In this document: positions 28,441-51,904 of the stretch, one piece after another
How positions within the stretch are numbered: the stretch's first letter is position 1
Layout of the letters: every line of letters begins with the position of its first letter
Sequence record: NC_054912.1
Reading direction: 5' to 3' (one strand)
Length of the DNA: 64,000 nt
From: Escherichia phage vB_EcoM_F1
The notes under the pieces: model-generated
What the model was told of the DNA's origin: nothing
Database searches by the model: none
Seen by the model: only the letters and a program-made list of their open reading frames with translations
Program-made: the position numbers and the translations under genes

Positions 28441-28626
28441 ATAATCTAACGGTAAGAGAGTACGATATATTTCAAACTTTGGACCTTTTTCATAGGCATC
28501 AAATGTTTCTGTGAATTTATTATAAGCATATGCATCTACAAATTCGAGAATGACTTGTGATACAGAAGTAGAAACATCTCCACCTTCTTTTTGAGCAATG
28601 ACAATTGTTTCTAAGTAAGCTTTCAT
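28438..28626 (-). CDS. small acidic hypothetical protein, start overlaps ligase stop
   Basis: 62-aa ORF; ATGA start/stop overlap with gene 30; terminator hairpin downstream. Confidence 0.5.
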   Translation of the reverse strand: MKAYLETIVIAQKEGGDVSTSVSQVILEFVDAYAYNKFTETFDAYEKGPKFEIYRTLLPLDY

Positions 28627-30086
28627 AGACCAGTTACCTCATGAAAATCACCAAATACATCCTCGAATGTATTAGCTTTAGTTTTATCTTCGCGTAAACG
28701 AATCGCAATCGGAAGAAATAATTTAACGTAATCAGTGCGGCCATCAGATTTTAACCAACCGTTGCATTCGCACTCTAGAATTTTTCCAATATAATAATTT
28801 TGGTTTTCCATAATGCGAGTACGGTCAAGTTCATGTGATTTTACGCCGGCTTTATCTTTTAAGCCTGAACCAGCATTTACCTTAATTTTTCCACACTCTG
28901 ACTCAAGAATAAATCCACCTGCTTTAGTAGGGTCTTTACGGTGAGGATAAATTCCTACAATTTTTAAATCAACATCAATTACTTCTTTAAATTTATAGAG
29001 ATTTTTTGAACGAGCATTTTCCCATAATCCATCGATATTTTTGAGAATAATACCTTCAAGACCTTGGTCAATATACTTTTTATAAATTACCTTAGCTTCA
29101 TCTAGGTTATTTACTACCTGGTTTTCAATTAAAATTACTTTATCATAGCCTGATGTCATTTGTTCTAGTTTAGAAAAACGTACATCATATTTCAAACGAA
29201 ATGCAGGAAGACCGTATATTTCTACCAACGGGACATAATCCCAAACCTGAAACTTCATGCATTGAGCTTCTTTTTCAGAAATGGTTCCCTTTAAAGATTT
29301 ATTAGCGATTCCATTAGAAGTAGTACGTGATTCAGCTACTTCGGCGAATTCTTTGGCTTTACTAATTTCAGGATAAGCATCAAAAAGAAAATCTAGGCCT
29401 TCTGGCTCCTTTTTAACTTGCTCATGGTATACCAATTCGCCATCAATTAACACGCCTTCTGGATGAATCTGGCGGGCTTCAGCGGTCATTTTGATTAATT
29501 CTTCCTTAAGAAGATCTAATCCTAGATATTCATTACCAGCTCGTGATAAAAGACGAACATCATCTAATTCATCACCTCTGACTTCGGCAAAGCACCGAGC
29601 CCCATCAGCTTTTAACTGGGCAAAGGCTGGAAATTTGATATTCTTATTAATGCCTTTTTCATCATAAGAACTTGCAAGCATTTGAGGTTGTTCAGGAATT
29701 AAACCTGACCAAACTTTGTTTGCAATAGATACTGAAGCACCACATTCAAGGTCTCGCATCATCACTCGACGCAAAACTTCAACATCATCTTTTTTACCAT
29801 CGGTGATATATCCAGTTAATTCCTCAATTGCTGCATTTCCAGTCAATTTCCGAGTAGCTAATGTGAATTCAATGAAGTCAAGCATATCGGTAAGAGTCAA
29901 CATTCCAAAACTCTGGGTAGCAATACCAGGTTTAGGCCATTTCTTGATATAATACTGCAACCCACGAGAATAAGTCAGACGATATACTCGTTTAAGCAAT
30001 TCATTATCTTTATTCTTTTCAAGAATTGCTTGCTTCTGCTTAGTTGAACCAATAGATGCTATTTCGTTCAGAATTTTAAGAATCAT
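28623..30086 (-). CDS. 30: ATP-dependent DNA ligase gp30
   Basis: 487 aa, MILKILNEIASIGSTKQKQAILEKN...; adenylation lysine motif KADGAR. Confidence 0.97.
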   Translation of the reverse strand: MILKILNEIASIGSTKQKQAILEKNKDNELLKRVYRLTYSRGLQYYIKKWPKPGIATQSFGMLTLTDMLDFIEFTLATRKLTGNAAIEELTGYITDGKKDDVEVLRRVMMRDLECGASVSIANKVWSGLIPEQPQMLASSYDEKGINKNIKFPAFAQLKADGARCFAEVRGDELDDVRLLSRAGNEYLGLDLLKEELIKMTAEARQIHPEGVLIDGELVYHEQVKKEPEGLDFLFDAYPEISKAKEFAEVAESRTTSNGIANKSLKGTISEKEAQCMKFQVWDYVPLVEIYGLPAFRLKYDVRFSKLEQMTSGYDKVILIENQVVNNLDEAKVIYKKYIDQGLEGIILKNIDGLWENARSKNLYKFKEVIDVDLKIVGIYPHRKDPTKAGGFILESECGKIKVNAGSGLKDKAGVKSHELDRTRIMENQNYYIGKILECECNGWLKSDGRTDYVKLFLPIAIRLREDKTKANTFEDVFGDFHEVTGL

Positions 30087-30352
30087 TATTCATCCTTCAG
30101 AGTTTGGTTTACAGCTCTATTATAAATCAATTCATCATTAAGCTCAGTCAAAGACTTATGATATGTGGTTCTAACTTTATTTCCTTGCATCCAGTGCTTG
30201 ATATAAATGAAACCTTGCTCTACGCATTTTTTAAAAATTCGTTCGTCTTTTTGAGCTCGGAATTCTGGATTGCATCTAAAAAATTGATTTACGTGACCGT
30301 AATCACGTGTAGTATTACCTTCATTTTCATAAATAGTATGAACAACAAACAT
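30086..30352 (-). CDS. hypothetical protein (30.1 position)
   Basis: 88-aa ORF, TAATG junction with gene 30. Confidence 0.6.
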   Translation of the reverse strand: MFVVHTIYENEGNTTRDYGHVNQFFRCNPEFRAQKDERIFKKCVEQGFIYIKHWMQGNKVRTTYHKSLTELNDELIYNRAVNQTLKDE

Positions 30353-31191
30353 TAGAACGCTCCTTGAAAAATATTATCACCACTAGTAGGTCTATTATAC
30401 AAATACTCTATGCCACCAGGTTTAATATAGTTCCATGTCTGAAACGGATGCGTCTGATATGGATGATATAGATGATTATAAGGATTAAATCCAGGAGTTC
30501 TCCAGGTAGTGTTCCAAGGAAAAGAATCGTTTTTAATCATCTTTTCAATTACATCTTTTATAGCTTTTTCACTATCAAAACTTTCTTTATTTTCCTTTGG
30601 TGAAAAAAGCTTATTCTCTACATCGTTCCATGTATAAACTCGCTGAGCAGTTTTTGGAATATTGTCACGCTCCCCTCGAGCCATCCAATAAACAGGAACA
30701 TTTAATATTTCACTCGCGTGATCGCAGTGGTGAGCGAGATCGTCAATATAACAAATTACGTTATATTTCTCTTTTGCCTTTTTGAACAACTCTTCTTTTG
30801 AAGAATCATGACCACACATCATTACTTCTGAGAAGGCACCAGGAAAAAGAGCATTTAAATTAAATTGACGATTCAGCAGAGCGTCAATAGAATCACCCAA
30901 TGCTGTAACAGCTACAAAATTATAATCTTCTTTTAATTTGTTAATTACACACAGAGCATCTTTATATGGAGACAAGTAACGAATAAAATCTGAACGATTG
31001 TATTTTTCAATTAACTTGACGCCAAGTTCTTCGTCACAATTAAAGAGTTTACCAGGAGAAATAAATTTCTCATCTTGGATCATTTTTAAAATATGTTCTA
31101 ACGGAAGATTATATTTCTGAGCAAAATAAGGAAGGCCTGATTGCCAGCTTAAACATACTCCATCAATATCAGTTAAAATAGTAGGCTTCAT
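30352..31191 (-). CDS. HAD-superfamily phosphatase/nucleotidase-like protein (30.2 position)
   Basis: 279 aa; N-terminal ILTDIDGV resembles HAD motif I (DxDG). Confidence 0.6.
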   Translation of the reverse strand: MKPTILTDIDGVCLSWQSGLPYFAQKYNLPLEHILKMIQDEKFISPGKLFNCDEELGVKLIEKYNRSDFIRYLSPYKDALCVINKLKEDYNFVAVTALGDSIDALLNRQFNLNALFPGAFSEVMMCGHDSSKEELFKKAKEKYNVICYIDDLAHHCDHASEILNVPVYWMARGERDNIPKTAQRVYTWNDVENKLFSPKENKESFDSEKAIKDVIEKMIKNDSFPWNTTWRTPGFNPYNHLYHPYQTHPFQTWNYIKPGGIEYLYNRPTSGDNIFQGAF

Positions 31192-31652
31192 AGAGAGTCT
31201 CTTAATAGGTTTAACACATCAATAAATTCAGCTTCGGTTAGTATTGTATCATCTTTTGTTAGACCACTAGCCATGCTGTGCTTCAAAACTTTTCCTTTCG
31301 AGGCTTGTAATGCATCACGAAAGCCCTTGTTTTGGATCGCTGCTTCAAAATATGCATTTGTGTATAATTCTTTCCACGCCGGGGAGTATCTTGAAAACGG
31401 AACTCCAAGCCAGAAGAGGGTCCCACGGTCCTGAGCTCTAGCATAAGACCTTCCAGCTTGTTGAGCGGAAAGCCCGGATAACCCAAATATACGACGTTGT
31501 TGTTCAACGTTTTTCACCTTGCATCCTTGGAGGAATCCTTCAAGACCTCCAAATTGAATACCATCCATAACGAAAGGCCATTGGGCGAAATTACTTAATG
31601 CACATGATGGCCACCTAAAATTACTTCTAATCTCTAACTCAGACATTTTCAA
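31188..31652 (-). CDS. NADAR/YbiA-like (DUF1768-type) protein (30.3 position)
   Basis: 154 aa; LSNFAQWPFVMDGIQF...LEGFLQGCK resembles the YbiA/NADAR core FSNFAAWP..DG....EHYFQAQK. Confidence 0.5.
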   Translation of the reverse strand: MKMSELEIRSNFRWPSCALSNFAQWPFVMDGIQFGGLEGFLQGCKVKNVEQQRRIFGLSGLSAQQAGRSYARAQDRGTLFWLGVPFSRYSPAWKELYTNAYFEAAIQNKGFRDALQASKGKVLKHSMASGLTKDDTILTEAEFIDVLNLLRDSL

Positions 31653-31845
31653 TGCTTATAATTTCAACATCAGCCCAATGACCATAGTTTGGTAGACGAA
31701 ATTCAACTGGCCAGTTAGGGTCCTTTTCTAATATAATAGACTCAACTCGTGGTTCTTCATGTTCATCAGTATATGGATTTTTATCTGTTACTTTATATGT
31801 GACCTTAATGTACTGAATTCCAAAAATCTTATTAATTATATTCAT
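31639..31845 (-). CDS. hypothetical small protein
   Basis: 68-aa ORF in operon context. Confidence 0.5.
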   Translation of the reverse strand: MNIINKIFGIQYIKVTYKVTDKNPYTDEHEEPRVESIILEKDPNWPVEFRLPNYGHWADVEIISIENV

Positions 31846-32039
31846 ACTAATTCCTTTAATCCGTAAATAGGAGATAATTCATCACCCATACGAAGGTCTT
31901 CATTTCCATCTACCCAGGAAACAATATAAGCCTCTTTTATTTGAACACCACTCCATTTAAATGGAGGTAGAACCTTAGAAATTAATCCAGGTATACCAAC
32001 TCCCTTTAATTCAACAGTTTGACCTAAAAAGAATTTCAT
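31842..32039 (-). CDS. hypothetical small protein
   Basis: 65-aa ORF in operon context. Confidence 0.5.
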   Translation of the reverse strand: MKFFLGQTVELKGVGIPGLISKVLPPFKWSGVQIKEAYIVSWVDGNEDLRMGDELSPIYGLKELV

Positions 32040-32799: not shown

Positions 32800-33132
32800 T
32801 TATTTTACTACTTTCCAATGCTGCATGTCAAGTTTACCAACTTTTTTCATCTTCTCAATTAAGCGTTCGGCACGTTGGCGAGCTGTAACATAATGCCATT
32901 CGCCTAATTCATTTTGTTCAATTTTTCCAACGATTACTGTATTCAATTCATAAATCCAACCGGTAAAGAAATTATGAACTTGAATTGTAAAGGTGAAATC
33001 TGTTCCCATACCTTCTGTTGTTTCTACTTCAATAATATCACCTTCAACTGCCATTAAGAACCACATAGTTTCATTATATGCACCGTTGAAGCATTTAGTT
33101 TTAACCGCAGCGTTCAGATTAATCGTTTTCAT
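32800..33132 (-). CDS. hypothetical protein
   Basis: 110-aa ORF with SD AAGGAG, downstream of an early promoter. Confidence 0.55.
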   Translation of the reverse strand: MKTINLNAAVKTKCFNGAYNETMWFLMAVEGDIIEVETTEGMGTDFTFTIQVHNFFTGWIYELNTVIVGKIEQNELGEWHYVTARQRAERLIEKMKKVGKLDMQHWKVVK

Positions 33133-33208: not shown

Positions 33209-33238
33209 AAAATAAAAAAGGACTCCCGAAGGAGTCCT
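33209..33238 (-). terminator. terminator after the small basic-protein gene
   Basis: GGACTCC-TTCG-GGAGTCC hairpin followed by TTTTTTATTTT on the minus strand. Confidence 0.65.
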
Positions 33239-33242
33239 CAAC

Positions 33243-36842: not shown

Positions 36843-38232
<1,390 letters not shown>

Positions 38233-50915: not shown

Positions 50916-51569
50916 TTAATACTTACAAGATTTCACAGTTTCAATGAAAACACTTTTAGCTTTCTGTGAATCAATATTTAAAATTTTTCTATAAGCCTTT
51001 AACTTTATAGAATAATTATTCCAGACTAAATTATCAGTCTGTTCATCATGTTTATCAATTATATTTAAAAATGAATCAAGCAAGATAAACGTCTCAAACG
51101 AAATTATGTTCGATTGAAGTAGTTTAAAAATATAACTTGATTGAACTTTTGGATTATATTCAAAAATTTCTTTAAAAGCAGAAACTTCAACTTTTTTACT
51201 GAAATAGTAAATATTGCGAATATCTTCTTCAAACTTAAATTTAATTTGCTTTAAGCGTCCGATATATTCACGATAAAACACAAGTGCATCAGCGTCAGAG
51301 ATGTCACCAATCCAAGCATCTTGGTTAGCAACCAAATTACTTATAAAAATTAAAGCAAGTTCCTTTAATTTATATTTTTCTGATAACTTCTGGAAAAAAT
51401 ACTTATCCCTTCGCTTTTGATAAGCGGCATCAGACACCCGCATGCACCAATTATACTTAATTACATCATACTTTCCATTCATATGTTGTTTTATCATTAA
51501 GTATAATTTATAAACTGATTTACCATCAATGTATCTTTCACCACCAGCAGGCATGCGGAGTTTAATCAT
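50916..51569 (-). CDS. 59: gp59 helicase loader
   Basis: 217 aa, MIKLRMPAGGERYIDGKSVYKLYLMIKQH... Confidence 0.93.
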   Translation of the reverse strand: MIKLRMPAGGERYIDGKSVYKLYLMIKQHMNGKYDVIKYNWCMRVSDAAYQKRRDKYFFQKLSEKYKLKELALIFISNLVANQDAWIGDISDADALVFYREYIGRLKQIKFKFEEDIRNIYYFSKKVEVSAFKEIFEYNPKVQSSYIFKLLQSNIISFETFILLDSFLNIIDKHDEQTDNLVWNNYSIKLKAYRKILNIDSQKAKSVFIETVKSCKY

Positions 51570-51904
51570 AGTAGAAAATCTAATGTATTAGTTTTTTCAC
51601 AACGAACAACAGAAGGACGTAAAAGATTTTCGTCGATAGCTTCTGATTGAATTTTTTCAATTATACCAGAAGGAATAAATTTAGCAAATTGAGTTTCAGG
51701 AATAGAGTTTTCTTCCAAGAATGCTGTCGTAGCTTCAAGATAACTCATTCCAAACTCTTCTACCATTTTTTCAATAATAAATCCATTTTCTTGACGATCA
51801 AGAAGCTTTGCAATTTCATCCTTTTCTTTCTTGATTGAAAGTTCTTTTTCTGAAAGACCGGTCTCATCGACCGGACGAATATCATTTAGAGAAAACTGTG
51901 TCAT
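51566..51904 (-). CDS. 33: gp33 late transcription co-activator
   Basis: 112 aa from ATG 51904 (MTQFSLNDIRPVDETGLSEKE...); the track ORF at 51913 begins on TTG. Confidence 0.88.
   Translation of the reverse strand: MTQFSLNDIRPVDETGLSEKELSIKKEKDEIAKLLDRQENGFIIEKMVEEFGMSYLEATTAFLEENSIPETQFAKFIPSGIIEKIQSEAIDENLLRPSVVRCEKTNTLDFLL

What the first reader, a model, noticed from the sequence alone, without database searches (positions are those of the whole stretch)
30352..31652. Adjacent HAD-phosphatase-like and NADAR/YbiA-like genes downstream of DNA ligase
The 279-aa ORF begins ILTDIDGV, a HAD motif-I signature. The next ORF (154 aa) contains LSNFAQWPFVMDGIQF...LEGFLQGCK, resembling the core of the YbiA/NADAR (DUF1768) fold (FSNFAAWP..DG....EHYFQAQK). 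NADAR-family enzymes have been linked to removal of ADP-ribose from nucleic-acid bases, and HAD enzymes process phosphorylated sugars and nucleotides. A pair like this in an early operon is a plausible counter-defence or nucleotide-salvage module against ADP-ribosylating toxins. The putative catalytic His/Tyr positions appear substituted (GF for HY), so the activity may differ from canonical NADAR.
Basis: inference. Interest (0 to 1): 0.5.

Follow-up and report, generated by a model that had tools for sequence, protein, structure and literature searches.

The report
Known T4 anti-DarT enzyme plus phosphatase
These are phage T4 genes 30.3 and 30.2: 30.3 is AdfN, a published enzyme that strips ADP-ribose off phage DNA to defeat the bacterial DarTG1 defence, and 30.2 is a still-uncharacterised HAD-type phosphatase that published transposon data show is not needed for that defence evasion.

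Summary
The window is a Tequatrovirus, 100% identical to Escherichia phage vB_EcoM_FN over the 2-kb stretch compared. Both ORFs are real and lie on the minus strand. They are T4 genes 30.2 (98% identical) and 30.3 (150/152 identical).

**gp30.3.** It matches Pfam PF08010, and its AlphaFold model matches only NADAR structures (YbiA, PnNADAR, G. lovleyi NADAR). It keeps Glu36, Lys43 and His123 and the C-terminal helix. This protein is already published as AdfN, a guanine-ADP-ribose DNA glycohydrolase that counters DarTG1. The worry about the "GF for HY" substitution is unfounded.

**gp30.2.** It is a confident HAD-fold phosphatase with all four motifs invariant and a helical C1 cap. It most resembles 5'(3')-deoxyribonucleotidases. 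Its tail is disordered. It has no Pfam hit and no published function.

**The pair.**
- It is not a demonstrated module. 30.2 sits next to DNA ligase in 31 of 37 clusters and next to the NADAR gene in only 9.
- T4 transposon data show 30.2 is dispensable with DarTG1 present (log2FC -0.12, against -7.25 for 30.3).
- A residual lead remains: Bacteroidales encode at least 120 protein clusters that fuse a gp30.3-type NADAR to an NT5C-type HAD domain.
- The genes lie upstream of ligase in transcription, not downstream.

The parts
31188..31646 (-). Gene 30.3 = adfN: a 152-aa NADAR-fold DNA (guanine) ADP-ribosylglycohydrolase. The mechanical ORF extends to a TTG at 31652.
   Evidence: PF08010 at 234 bits. 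150/152 identical to T4 gp30.3. AlphaFold pLDDT 90.3. Foldseek top three hits are YbiA 2b3w, PnNADAR 8bau and G. lovleyi NADAR 8bat. Function shown for the T4 protein in PMC11825919.
31539..31541 (-). Codon for catalytic Glu36 (T4 numbering; Glu38 in the 154-aa ORF).
   Evidence: Read directly from the sequence. Invariant in alignments A1 and A3. E36A impairs AdfN (PMC11825919).
31518..31520 (-). Codon for catalytic Lys43 (Lys45 in the 154-aa ORF).
   Evidence: Invariant in A1 and nearly invariant in A3. K43A impairs AdfN.
31278..31280 (-). Codon for His123 (His125 in the 154-aa ORF), the last-strand residue that defines the phage gp30.3 NADAR subfamily.
   Evidence: Invariant in A1 and nearly invariant in A3. 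The subfamily definition comes from PMC11543638 and PMC11125620.
30607..31191 (-). Gene 30.2, residues 1-195: HAD-superfamily phosphatase core with a helical C1 cap (about residues 16-86).
30352..30606 (-). Gene 30.2, residues 196-279 plus the stop codon: a variable tail with one helix (207-220), then a disordered Pro/Trp/Tyr-rich stretch.
   Evidence: pLDDT below 50 for residues 239-279. Many homologues of 196-235 aa lack the tail.
30385..30417 (-). Short conserved motif GGIEYLYNRPT (residues 259-269) inside the disordered tail.
   Evidence: G[TG]GIEY[LWY]xxQPT recurs in 10 of 35 homologues whose tails are otherwise unalignable. Its function is unknown.
30086..30352 (-). Gene 30.1 (DUF3045), lying between 30.2 and ligase.
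   Evidence: PF11243 at 213 bits. T4 annotation.
28623..30086 (-). Gene 30, ATP-dependent DNA ligase. It is the conserved downstream neighbour of 30.2.
   Evidence: PF01068. Ligase lies within 600 nt downstream of 30.2 in 31 of 37 homologue clusters.
31639..31845 (-). Gene 30.4 (68 aa), whose end overlaps the adfN start by 8 nt.
   Evidence: phrog_2042. Transposon insertions are depleted on a DarTG1 host (log2FC -1.79, adjusted p 0.014).
32802..32831 (-). Best sigma-70-like promoter match upstream of 30.7 (TTGACA-18-TAAAAT). It is a possible start of the transcription unit 30.7 through 30.
   Evidence: 11 of 12 consensus positions. The overall number of promoter-like sites in the region is not above chance, so this is only a lead.

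Best explanation
The locus holds two adjacent genes of a T4-type phage. The ATGA stop/start overlap suggests translational coupling; co-transcription is inferred only.

Gene 30.3 is AdfN, a stand-alone NADAR-fold enzyme. During infection it hydrolyses the N-glycosidic bond between ADP-ribose and guanine N2 in phage DNA. This reverses the damage done by the host DarT1 toxin and lets replication proceed. That mechanism is shown for the 99%-identical T4 protein. For this window it is inferred from near-identity and from the intact Glu36, Lys43, His123 and C-terminal helix.

Gene 30.2 is a separate Mg2+-dependent HAD phosphomonoesterase. It has the DxD nucleophile/acid pair, Thr, Lys and a DD motif. 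Its helical C1 cap encloses the active site, which points to a small phosphorylated substrate. The most likely substrate is a (deoxy)nucleoside monophosphate or a related sugar phosphate, given that the closest structures are 5'(3')-deoxyribonucleotidases. The fold and catalytic motifs are shown here; the substrate is inferred.

gp30.2 is an accessory enzyme. It is dispensable on E. coli K-12 and is not required for AdfN to defeat DarTG1. Its evolutionary partner in gene order is the DNA ligase gene, not adfN.
For: Identity of the locus:
- 100% match to vB_EcoM_FN.
- T4 gene map.
- 150/152 and 273/279 identity to T4 gp30.3 and gp30.2.

AdfN:
- PF08010.
- pLDDT 90.
- NADAR-only structural matches with probability 1.0.
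- Profile hit to YbiA at E=7.5e-4.
- Conserved E, K and H.
- Published genetics and biochemistry (PMC11825919; PMC11125620).
- Transposon log2FC -7.25 on a DarTG1 host.

gp30.2:
- Invariant HAD motifs.
- Confident model.
- 8 of 35 homologues weakly hit PF00702 and 5 of 35 hit PF06941 NT5C.
- Some depositors already call homologues 'putative phosphatase' or 'HAD-superfamily hydrolase'.

Independence of the two genes:
- 72 of 72 insertion sites in 30.2 tolerated on K-12.
- log2FC -0.12, p=0.61 on DarTG1.
- Ligase adjacent in 31 of 37 clusters, against NADAR adjacent in 9 of 37.
- 56 of 80 NADAR-anchored viral loci have no HAD nearby.
Against: - No substrate has been determined for gp30.2.
- AdfN is reported to need an unidentified T-even factor for full activity.
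- gp30.3-type NADAR domains are fused to NT5C-type HAD domains in at least 120 Bacteroidales protein clusters, with catalytic residues of both halves conserved. This argues that the two enzyme types can work together, so full independence in the phage is not proven.
- The transposon experiment tested one DarTG1 system in one host.
Confidence: 0.85

Rival explanations
1. The two genes form a two-step module. The NADAR enzyme releases an ADP-ribose-derived product (or acts on a phosphorylated ADP-ribose adduct), and the HAD phosphatase removes a phosphate from the product or substrate. On this view gp30.2 helps AdfN, perhaps against an ADP-ribosylating or NAD-derived-signal defence other than DarTG1.
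For: - ATGA overlap of the two genes.
- The same order, NADAR then HAD, is found fused in one polypeptide in at least 120 clusters from Prevotella/Bacteroidaceae, all carrying PF08010+PF06941. Catalytic residues of both domains are kept in at least 30 of 33 sampled.
- One fusion gene sits among ADP-ribosylglycohydrolase, a second NADAR, RtcB and two phosphatase genes.
- Both genes are near-universal in the same phage genera.
- AdfN needs an unknown T-even factor.
- Locus L192 has a 30.2-like HAD upstream of a NADAR in a different arrangement.
Against: - Insertions in 30.2 are neutral on DarTG1 while adfN insertions are lost.
- The two genes are adjacent in only 9 of 37 gp30.2 clusters, and several T4-like genomes keep the NADAR gene 55-60 kb away.
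- 56 of 80 phage NADAR loci and 79 of 80 bacterial NADAR loci have no 30.2-type HAD nearby. The single bacterial case is a T4-like phage contig.
- The fused HAD domain is only distantly related to gp30.2: hhalign probability 89% over motifs I-II only, and the gp30.2 profile finds no fusion protein at E<=1e-3.
- NADAR fusion partners are heterogeneous, including GDSL lipase, LRR and alpha/beta hydrolase.
Confidence: 0.12
2. gp30.2 is a DNA-end-healing 3'-phosphatase that prepares nicks for the adjacent DNA ligase. This would resemble the way the HAD phosphatase domain of T4 polynucleotide kinase serves RNA ligase.
For: - 30.2 lies directly upstream of the ligase gene in 31 of 37 clusters, often with overlapping or near-touching ORFs. 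It stays beside ligase, in reversed order, in L076-L078.
- Weak hit to phrog_415 'polynucleotide kinase' at E=0.002.
- The DxD phosphatase chemistry is the same.
Against: - The model has a large helical C1 cap over the active site. From general knowledge of HAD enzymes, that is typical of small-molecule phosphatases, whereas DNA/RNA 3'-phosphatases are essentially cap-less.
- No polynucleotide phosphatase appears among the top 50-60 structural matches.
- T4 already encodes Pnk (37032-37937 in this window; identification from my own knowledge of the T4 map).
- Ligase is essential but 30.2 is fully dispensable.
- Conserved gene order within one virus family may simply be inherited.
Confidence: 0.08

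Closest known systems
T4 AdfN (gp30.3), anti-DarT factor NADAR (Johannesman et al. 2025, PMC11825919)
   Same: 150 of 152 residues identical. Same genomic position. Same Glu36, Lys43 and His123, and an intact C-terminal helix.
   Different: Two conservative substitutions (S60A, M125I relative to T4). Activity was not measured for this allele.
DarG1 / DarT1-associated NADAR antitoxins (E. coli C7; G. lovleyi, PDB 8BAT)
   Same: NADAR fold and the Glu/Lys pair. Both hydrolyse guanine-ADP-ribose on DNA.
   Different: The phage protein lacks the N-terminal extension. It has His where DarG1 has Asp in the last strand. It does not rescue uninfected E. coli from DarT1.
E. coli YbiA (PDB 2B3W), founding NADAR/DUF1768 member
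   Same: Best structural match (Foldseek E=2.6e-5, TM 0.68). The SNFxxWP...DG...ExxxQxxK motif aligns.
   Different: 19% identity. HY after the Glu is GF here, and the last-strand Glu is His. According to the literature YbiA is a housekeeping enzyme linked to riboflavin metabolism.
5'(3')-deoxyribonucleotidases of the NT5C family (human cdN/mdN; S. epidermidis 3BWV)
   Different: The window protein does not reach the Pfam threshold. The cap is larger. There is an extra 85-residue tail. No activity is known.
Bacteroidales NADAR-NT5C fusion proteins (e.g. P0133, 330 aa)
   Same: They combine a gp30.3-type NADAR (PF08010, with His in the last strand) and a HAD phosphatase in the same order as genes 30.3 and 30.2. 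Motif I is followed by a similar VxFQSGL / VxWQSGL stretch.
   Different: They are a single polypeptide and are chromosomal in bacteria. The HAD domain is a short-cap canonical NT5C, not an orthologue of gp30.2.
HAD 3'-phosphatase domain of T4 polynucleotide kinase
   Same: A phage HAD DxD phosphatase that works with a ligase.
   Different: From general knowledge it has no cap and acts on polynucleotide ends. It is not among the structural matches of gp30.2.

Membership tests
NADAR superfamily, phage gp30.3/AdfN subfamily | Match to the family profile (Pfam PF08010 Phage_30_3) above the curated cut-off | tested here: met
   234.4 bits against a cut-off of 36; residues 13-152 cover the whole model.
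NADAR superfamily, phage gp30.3/AdfN subfamily | YbiA/NADAR alpha+beta fold | tested here: met
   AlphaFold pLDDT 90.3, pTM 0.86. The only PDB matches with probability 1.0 are 2b3w, 8bau and 8bat, all NADARs.
NADAR superfamily, phage gp30.3/AdfN subfamily | Catalytic Glu and Lys seven residues apart (ExxxxxxK) | tested here: met
   LEGFLQGCK: Glu36 and Lys43 in T4 numbering. Glu is invariant and Lys nearly invariant in 50 family members.
NADAR superfamily, phage gp30.3/AdfN subfamily | His in the last strand, in place of the Glu (YbiA) or Asp (BC4488/DarG1) of other subfamilies | tested here: met
   LKHS, His123. Invariant in A1 and nearly invariant in A3. The criterion comes from PMC11125620 and PMC11543638.
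NADAR superfamily, phage gp30.3/AdfN subfamily | Intact C-terminal helix (lost in the inactive RB69 allele) | tested here: met
   Full-length 152 aa, with helix 140-153 in the model. RB69 truncation is described.
NADAR superfamily, phage gp30.3/AdfN subfamily | Hydrolysis of guanine-linked ADP-ribose on DNA, and protection from DarTG1 | not testable with these tools
   Shown for the T4 protein. Inferred here from 99% identity.
NADAR superfamily (Pfam PF08719 NADAR model) | Direct hit to the general NADAR profile | tested here: not met
   No PF08719 hit at E<=1 for the window protein. Only sub-threshold hits (17.7-21.2 bits against a cut-off of 35.1) in some relatives. The link to NADAR rests on structure and on the A3 profile hit to YbiA.
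HAD (haloacid dehalogenase-like) phosphatase superfamily | Motif I DxDx[TV] at the end of strand 1 | tested here: met
   TDIDGV. D8, D10 and G11 are invariant in 35 homologues. Strand 4-7 in the model.
HAD (haloacid dehalogenase-like) phosphatase superfamily | Motif II Ser/Thr, motif III Lys/Arg, motif IV acidic pair | tested here: met
   T96 (Ser in one homologue), K132, and D150-D151 are invariant or nearly so, and lie at the ends of strands 91-96, 120-125 and 145-150. The assignment is by conservation and position in the model, not by superposition.
HAD (haloacid dehalogenase-like) phosphatase superfamily | Rossmann-like HAD core fold | tested here: met
HAD (haloacid dehalogenase-like) phosphatase superfamily | Match to a curated HAD sequence profile | tested here: not met
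   No Pfam or NCBIfam hit for the window protein. Only weak hits in 8 of 35 (PF00702) and 6 of 35 (PF13419) homologues.
NT5C 5'(3')-deoxyribonucleotidase family (PF06941) | Profile match above the gathering score | tested here: not met
   No hit for the window protein. 5 of 35 homologues hit, best E=1.2e-4.
NT5C 5'(3')-deoxyribonucleotidase family (PF06941) | Closest structural relatives are NT5C enzymes | tested here: inconclusive
NT5C 5'(3')-deoxyribonucleotidase family (PF06941) | dNMP phosphatase activity | not testable with these tools
   No biochemical data on gp30.2 were found.
Polynucleotide 3'-phosphatase (T4 Pnk type) | Cap-less (C0) HAD core with an open active site for nucleic-acid ends | tested here: not met
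   A helical insertion of about 70 residues between motifs I and II (helices 16-86). No Pnk-type structure among the top matches.

The most novel reading that the evidence does not exclude
gp30.2 and the gp30.3-type NADAR are two halves of an ancestral two-enzyme pathway, fused in Bacteroidales as NADAR-NT5C proteins. The pathway would process an ADP-ribose-linked nucleotide or nucleic-acid adduct in two steps, glycosidic cleavage and then dephosphorylation. In T4-like phages the pair would then protect against an ADP-ribosylating or NAD-derived-signal defence that has not yet been tested, with DarTG1 needing only the first step.
Probability: 0.12. Interest if true: 0.6.

Novelty: already known. 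Interest (0 to 1): 0.22.

Why it matters
The main point of the finding, a NADAR enzyme in a T4-like phage acting as counter-defence to DNA ADP-ribosylation, was published in 2024-2025. This window adds only another near-identical allele, which predicts that the phage resists DarTG1.

Two things remain open. First, gp30.2 is a well-folded and evidently active HAD phosphatase. It occurs in about 1,400 sequenced phage records, almost always beside DNA ligase, and no substrate or phenotype is known. Second, the gp30.3-type NADAR is fused to an NT5C-type HAD domain in many gut Bacteroidales. That fusion offers a concrete starting point for asking what stand-alone bacterial NADARs do, and whether a phosphatase step follows de-ADP-ribosylation.

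Tried and rejected
- **Sequence-only searches for gp30.2.** Pfam, NCBIfam and PDB sequence searches gave nothing usable. Structure prediction was needed.
- **gp30.2 as the unknown T-even factor that potentiates AdfN.** I considered this because of the ATGA overlap, the fusions, and the statement in PMC11825919 that such a factor exists. I rejected it as the main explanation because T4 insertions in 30.2 are neutral on a DarTG1 host.
- **The gp30.2 profile (A2) searched against the NADAR-family proteins, fusion proteins included.** No hit at E<=1e-3. The fused HAD domains are therefore not gp30.2 orthologues.
- **30.2-like HADs next to gp30.3-type NADARs in 80 bacterial loci.** Only one was found (L133), and it turned out to be a T4-like phage contig inside a Flagellimonas marina assembly.
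- **Clamp-binding idea for the tail motif.** gp33 in this window ends in TLDFLL, and gp30.2 has an internal IEYL. The resemblance covers four residues and the motif is not at the C-terminus, so I kept it only as a lead.
- **Promoter and terminator scan.** The counts are not above shuffled expectation, so the transcription unit is inferred, not shown.
- **Literature.** A search for gp30.2 found no paper. I read the wrong part of the supplement when looking for the 30.2 row in the LB-versus-M9 comparison and did not pursue it further.
Full report
**What is there.**
The window matches Escherichia phage vB_EcoM_FN (Tequatrovirus) at 100% over 30000-32000. The gene order is that of phage T4: alt, alt.1, 30 (ligase), 30.1, 30.2, 30.3, 30.4 ... 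rIII, 31. All of these are on the minus strand.

The two ORFs in the finding are T4 genes 30.2 and 30.3. Gene 30.2 spans 30352-31191 (279 aa) and is 273/279 identical to T4. Gene 30.3 spans 31188-31646 from its ATG (152 aa) and is 150/152 identical to T4. The 154-aa reading from TTG at 31652 is only the mechanical ORF.

The quoted peptide motifs are present. The 30.3 stop and the 30.2 start overlap as ATGA, and the end of 30.4 overlaps the 30.3 start by 8 nt. Transcription runs 30.3, 30.2, 30.1, ligase. The pair therefore lies upstream of ligase, not downstream.

**Gene 30.3.**
- It matches Pfam PF08010 (Phage_30_3) at 234 bits.
- With a 10-sequence alignment, AlphaFold gives pLDDT 90.3.
- The only PDB matches with probability 1.0 are E. 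coli YbiA, Phytophthora NADAR with ADP-ribose, and Geobacter lovleyi NADAR.
- A profile of 50 diverse family members hits YbiA at E=7.5e-4.
- A full scan of 1.84 billion representative proteins found 1451 relatives. The subfamily is therefore large and not confined to phages.

The literature settles the function.
- gp30.3 proteins were already classed as the 'phage NADAR' subfamily, defined by a His in the last strand.
- The T4 protein hydrolyses guanine-ADP-ribose in vitro (PMC11125620).
- It was renamed AdfN after being shown to be necessary for T4 to resist DarTG1 and sufficient to rescue RB69. The E36A and K43A mutants are impaired (PMC11825919).
- In a T4 transposon library, adfN insertions are lost on a DarTG1 host (log2FC -7.25).

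The window allele keeps Glu36, Lys43, His123 and the C-terminal helix that the defective RB69 allele lacks.

**Gene 30.2.**
Sequence libraries give nothing for the window protein itself beyond phrog_420, of unknown function. An alignment of 35 homologues down to 34% identity shows invariant D8-x-D10-G11, K132 and D150-D151, and near-invariant T96. These are the four HAD motifs.

AlphaFold gives pLDDT 91-98 for residues 1-190, with a helical insertion (about residues 16-86) between motifs I and II. That is a C1 cap. Beyond residue 226, and continuously from 239, the chain is disordered.

The DxD pair marks a phosphatase or phosphotransferase rather than a dehalogenase. The cap points to a small substrate. 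Both statements rest on general knowledge of HAD enzymes. My best estimate is a nucleotide or sugar-phosphate phosphomonoesterase. The substrate is not determined.

**Is the pair a module?**
Evidence for a link:
- The genes overlap.
- Both occur in about 1,450 phage records with almost identical genus distributions.
- gp30.3-type NADAR domains are fused, N-terminal to an NT5C-type HAD domain, in at least 120 protein clusters from Prevotella/Bacteroidaceae. Some lie on chromosomal contigs of up to 2.6 Mb.
- Catalytic residues of both halves are conserved in at least 30 of 33 sampled fusions.
- One such fusion gene lies among genes for an ADP-ribosylglycohydrolase, another NADAR, RtcB and two phosphatases.
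- AdfN is also reported to need an unidentified T-even factor for full activity.

Evidence against a link:
- In 37 clusters of gp30.2 homologues from viral contigs, ligase lies within 600 nt downstream in 31. A NADAR gene is directly adjacent in only 9 and within 6 kb in 15.
- Several T4-like genomes carry the NADAR gene 55-60 kb away instead.
- 56 of 80 NADAR-anchored viral loci have no HAD nearby.
- 79 of 80 bacterial NADAR loci have none either. The exception is a T4-like phage contig in a Flagellimonas assembly.
- The fused HAD domain is only distantly related to gp30.2.
- Most directly, in the HIDEN-SEQ T4 library, 30.2 tolerates insertions at 72 of 72 sites on K-12. It is also unaffected by DarTG1: 71 sites, log2FC -0.12, p=0.61, in sheet Data S6.

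gp30.2 is therefore not required for AdfN to defeat DarTG1. A cooperative role in some other context remains possible but unproven.

**Ligase association.**
The tight 30.2-(30.1)-ligase arrangement suggests co-expression, and it raises the idea of an end-healing 3'-phosphatase. The capped architecture, the absence of polynucleotide phosphatases among the structural matches, and the dispensability of 30.2 next to an essential ligase all make this unlikely. Within a single virus family, conserved order may simply be inherited.

**Verdict.**
The suggested loss of catalytic residues is wrong, and the two-gene module is not supported for DarTG1.

The novel content is small. It consists of a structural assignment of gp30.2 as a C1-capped, NT5C-like HAD phosphatase with a facultative disordered tail carrying a GIEYLxxQPT motif, its strong synteny with ligase, and the widespread NADAR-NT5C fusions in Bacteroidales.

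Noticed in passing
window 31188-31568 (record MZ170041 127189-127569): The GenBank record annotates adfN/30.3 as a 126-aa CDS starting at an internal Met (MDGIQF...). This cuts off the first 26 residues, including the SNF motif whose Asn is invariant across 50 family members. The T4 start at 31646 gives the full 152-aa enzyme.
   Followed up: partly
window 31639-31845 (gene 30.4): In the published T4 transposon data, insertions in 30.4, directly upstream of and overlapping adfN, are significantly depleted on a DarTG1 host (log2FC -1.79, adjusted p 0.014). Neighbouring genes 30.1, 30.2 and 30.6-30.9 are unaffected. This could be polarity on adfN, or 30.4 could be a candidate for the unknown T-even factor AdfN is said to need.
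   Followed up: no
window 30385-30417 (gp30.2 residues 259-269): The motif G[TG]GIEY[LWY]xxQPT is conserved in 10 of 35 gp30.2 homologues, inside otherwise unalignable, disordered Pro/Trp/Tyr-rich tails. Many homologues lack the tail entirely. It looks like a docking peptide. It has a faint likeness (I-E-Y-L) to the clamp-binding C-terminus of gp33, which ends TLDFLL at 51566-51904 in this window.
   Followed up: partly
P0133 and relatives; locus L161 5001-5993: At least 120 protein clusters from gut Bacteroidales (Prevotella, Bacteroidaceae) fuse a gp30.3-type NADAR to an NT5C HAD domain. In L161 the fusion gene sits with genes for ADP_ribosyl_GH, a 344-aa NADAR, RtcB, a PTP-like phosphatase and an LMW phosphatase. 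I found no description of this architecture in the papers searched.
   Followed up: partly
P0153, P0183, P0194, P0226, P0198, P0233: gp30.3-type NADAR domains are also fused to GDSL lipase, UPF0227 alpha/beta hydrolase, BspA-type leucine-rich repeats, prolipoprotein diacylglyceryl transferase and an FtsW/RodA-like domain. Some proteins carry two or three NADAR repeats, such as P0123 and P0124.
   Followed up: no
L133 (Flagellimonas marina NZ_JBHSCL010000010.1, 178-kb contig): This contig of a bacterial genome assembly carries a T4-like block: a dCMP-deaminase-like gene, a gp31-like co-chaperonin, NADAR, a 30.2-like HAD and a T4-type DNA ligase. It is probably a co-assembled T4-like phage genome rather than bacterial DNA.
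   Followed up: partly
L186, L187, L189, L207, L217, L221, L231 against L018, L066, L041, L079, L035, L022, L029: Seven T4-like genomes that lack a NADAR gene next to 30.2 carry a gp30.3-type NADAR 55-60 kb away on the same contig. The gene has therefore moved, or been re-acquired, within the family.
   Followed up: no
window 31283-31507, minus strand: A 74-aa ORF in another frame inside adfN corresponds to T4 30.3', which the T4 record annotates as an internal translation product in a different reading frame.
   Followed up: no
window 33218-33239 and 32802-32831, minus strand: A strong terminator-like hairpin (9-bp stem, 5 GC pairs, then a T-run) lies just after 30.9. An 11/12 sigma-70-like promoter lies just before 30.7. 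Together they suggest a transcription unit running from 30.7 through adfN and 30.2 into ligase. Overall site counts are not above chance.
   Followed up: no
PMC11125620, Methods: The Toxins 2024 paper lists its T4 NADAR construct as 'gp30.3; residues 1-208', whereas T4 gp30.3 is 152 aa. The discrepancy is unexplained.
   Followed up: no
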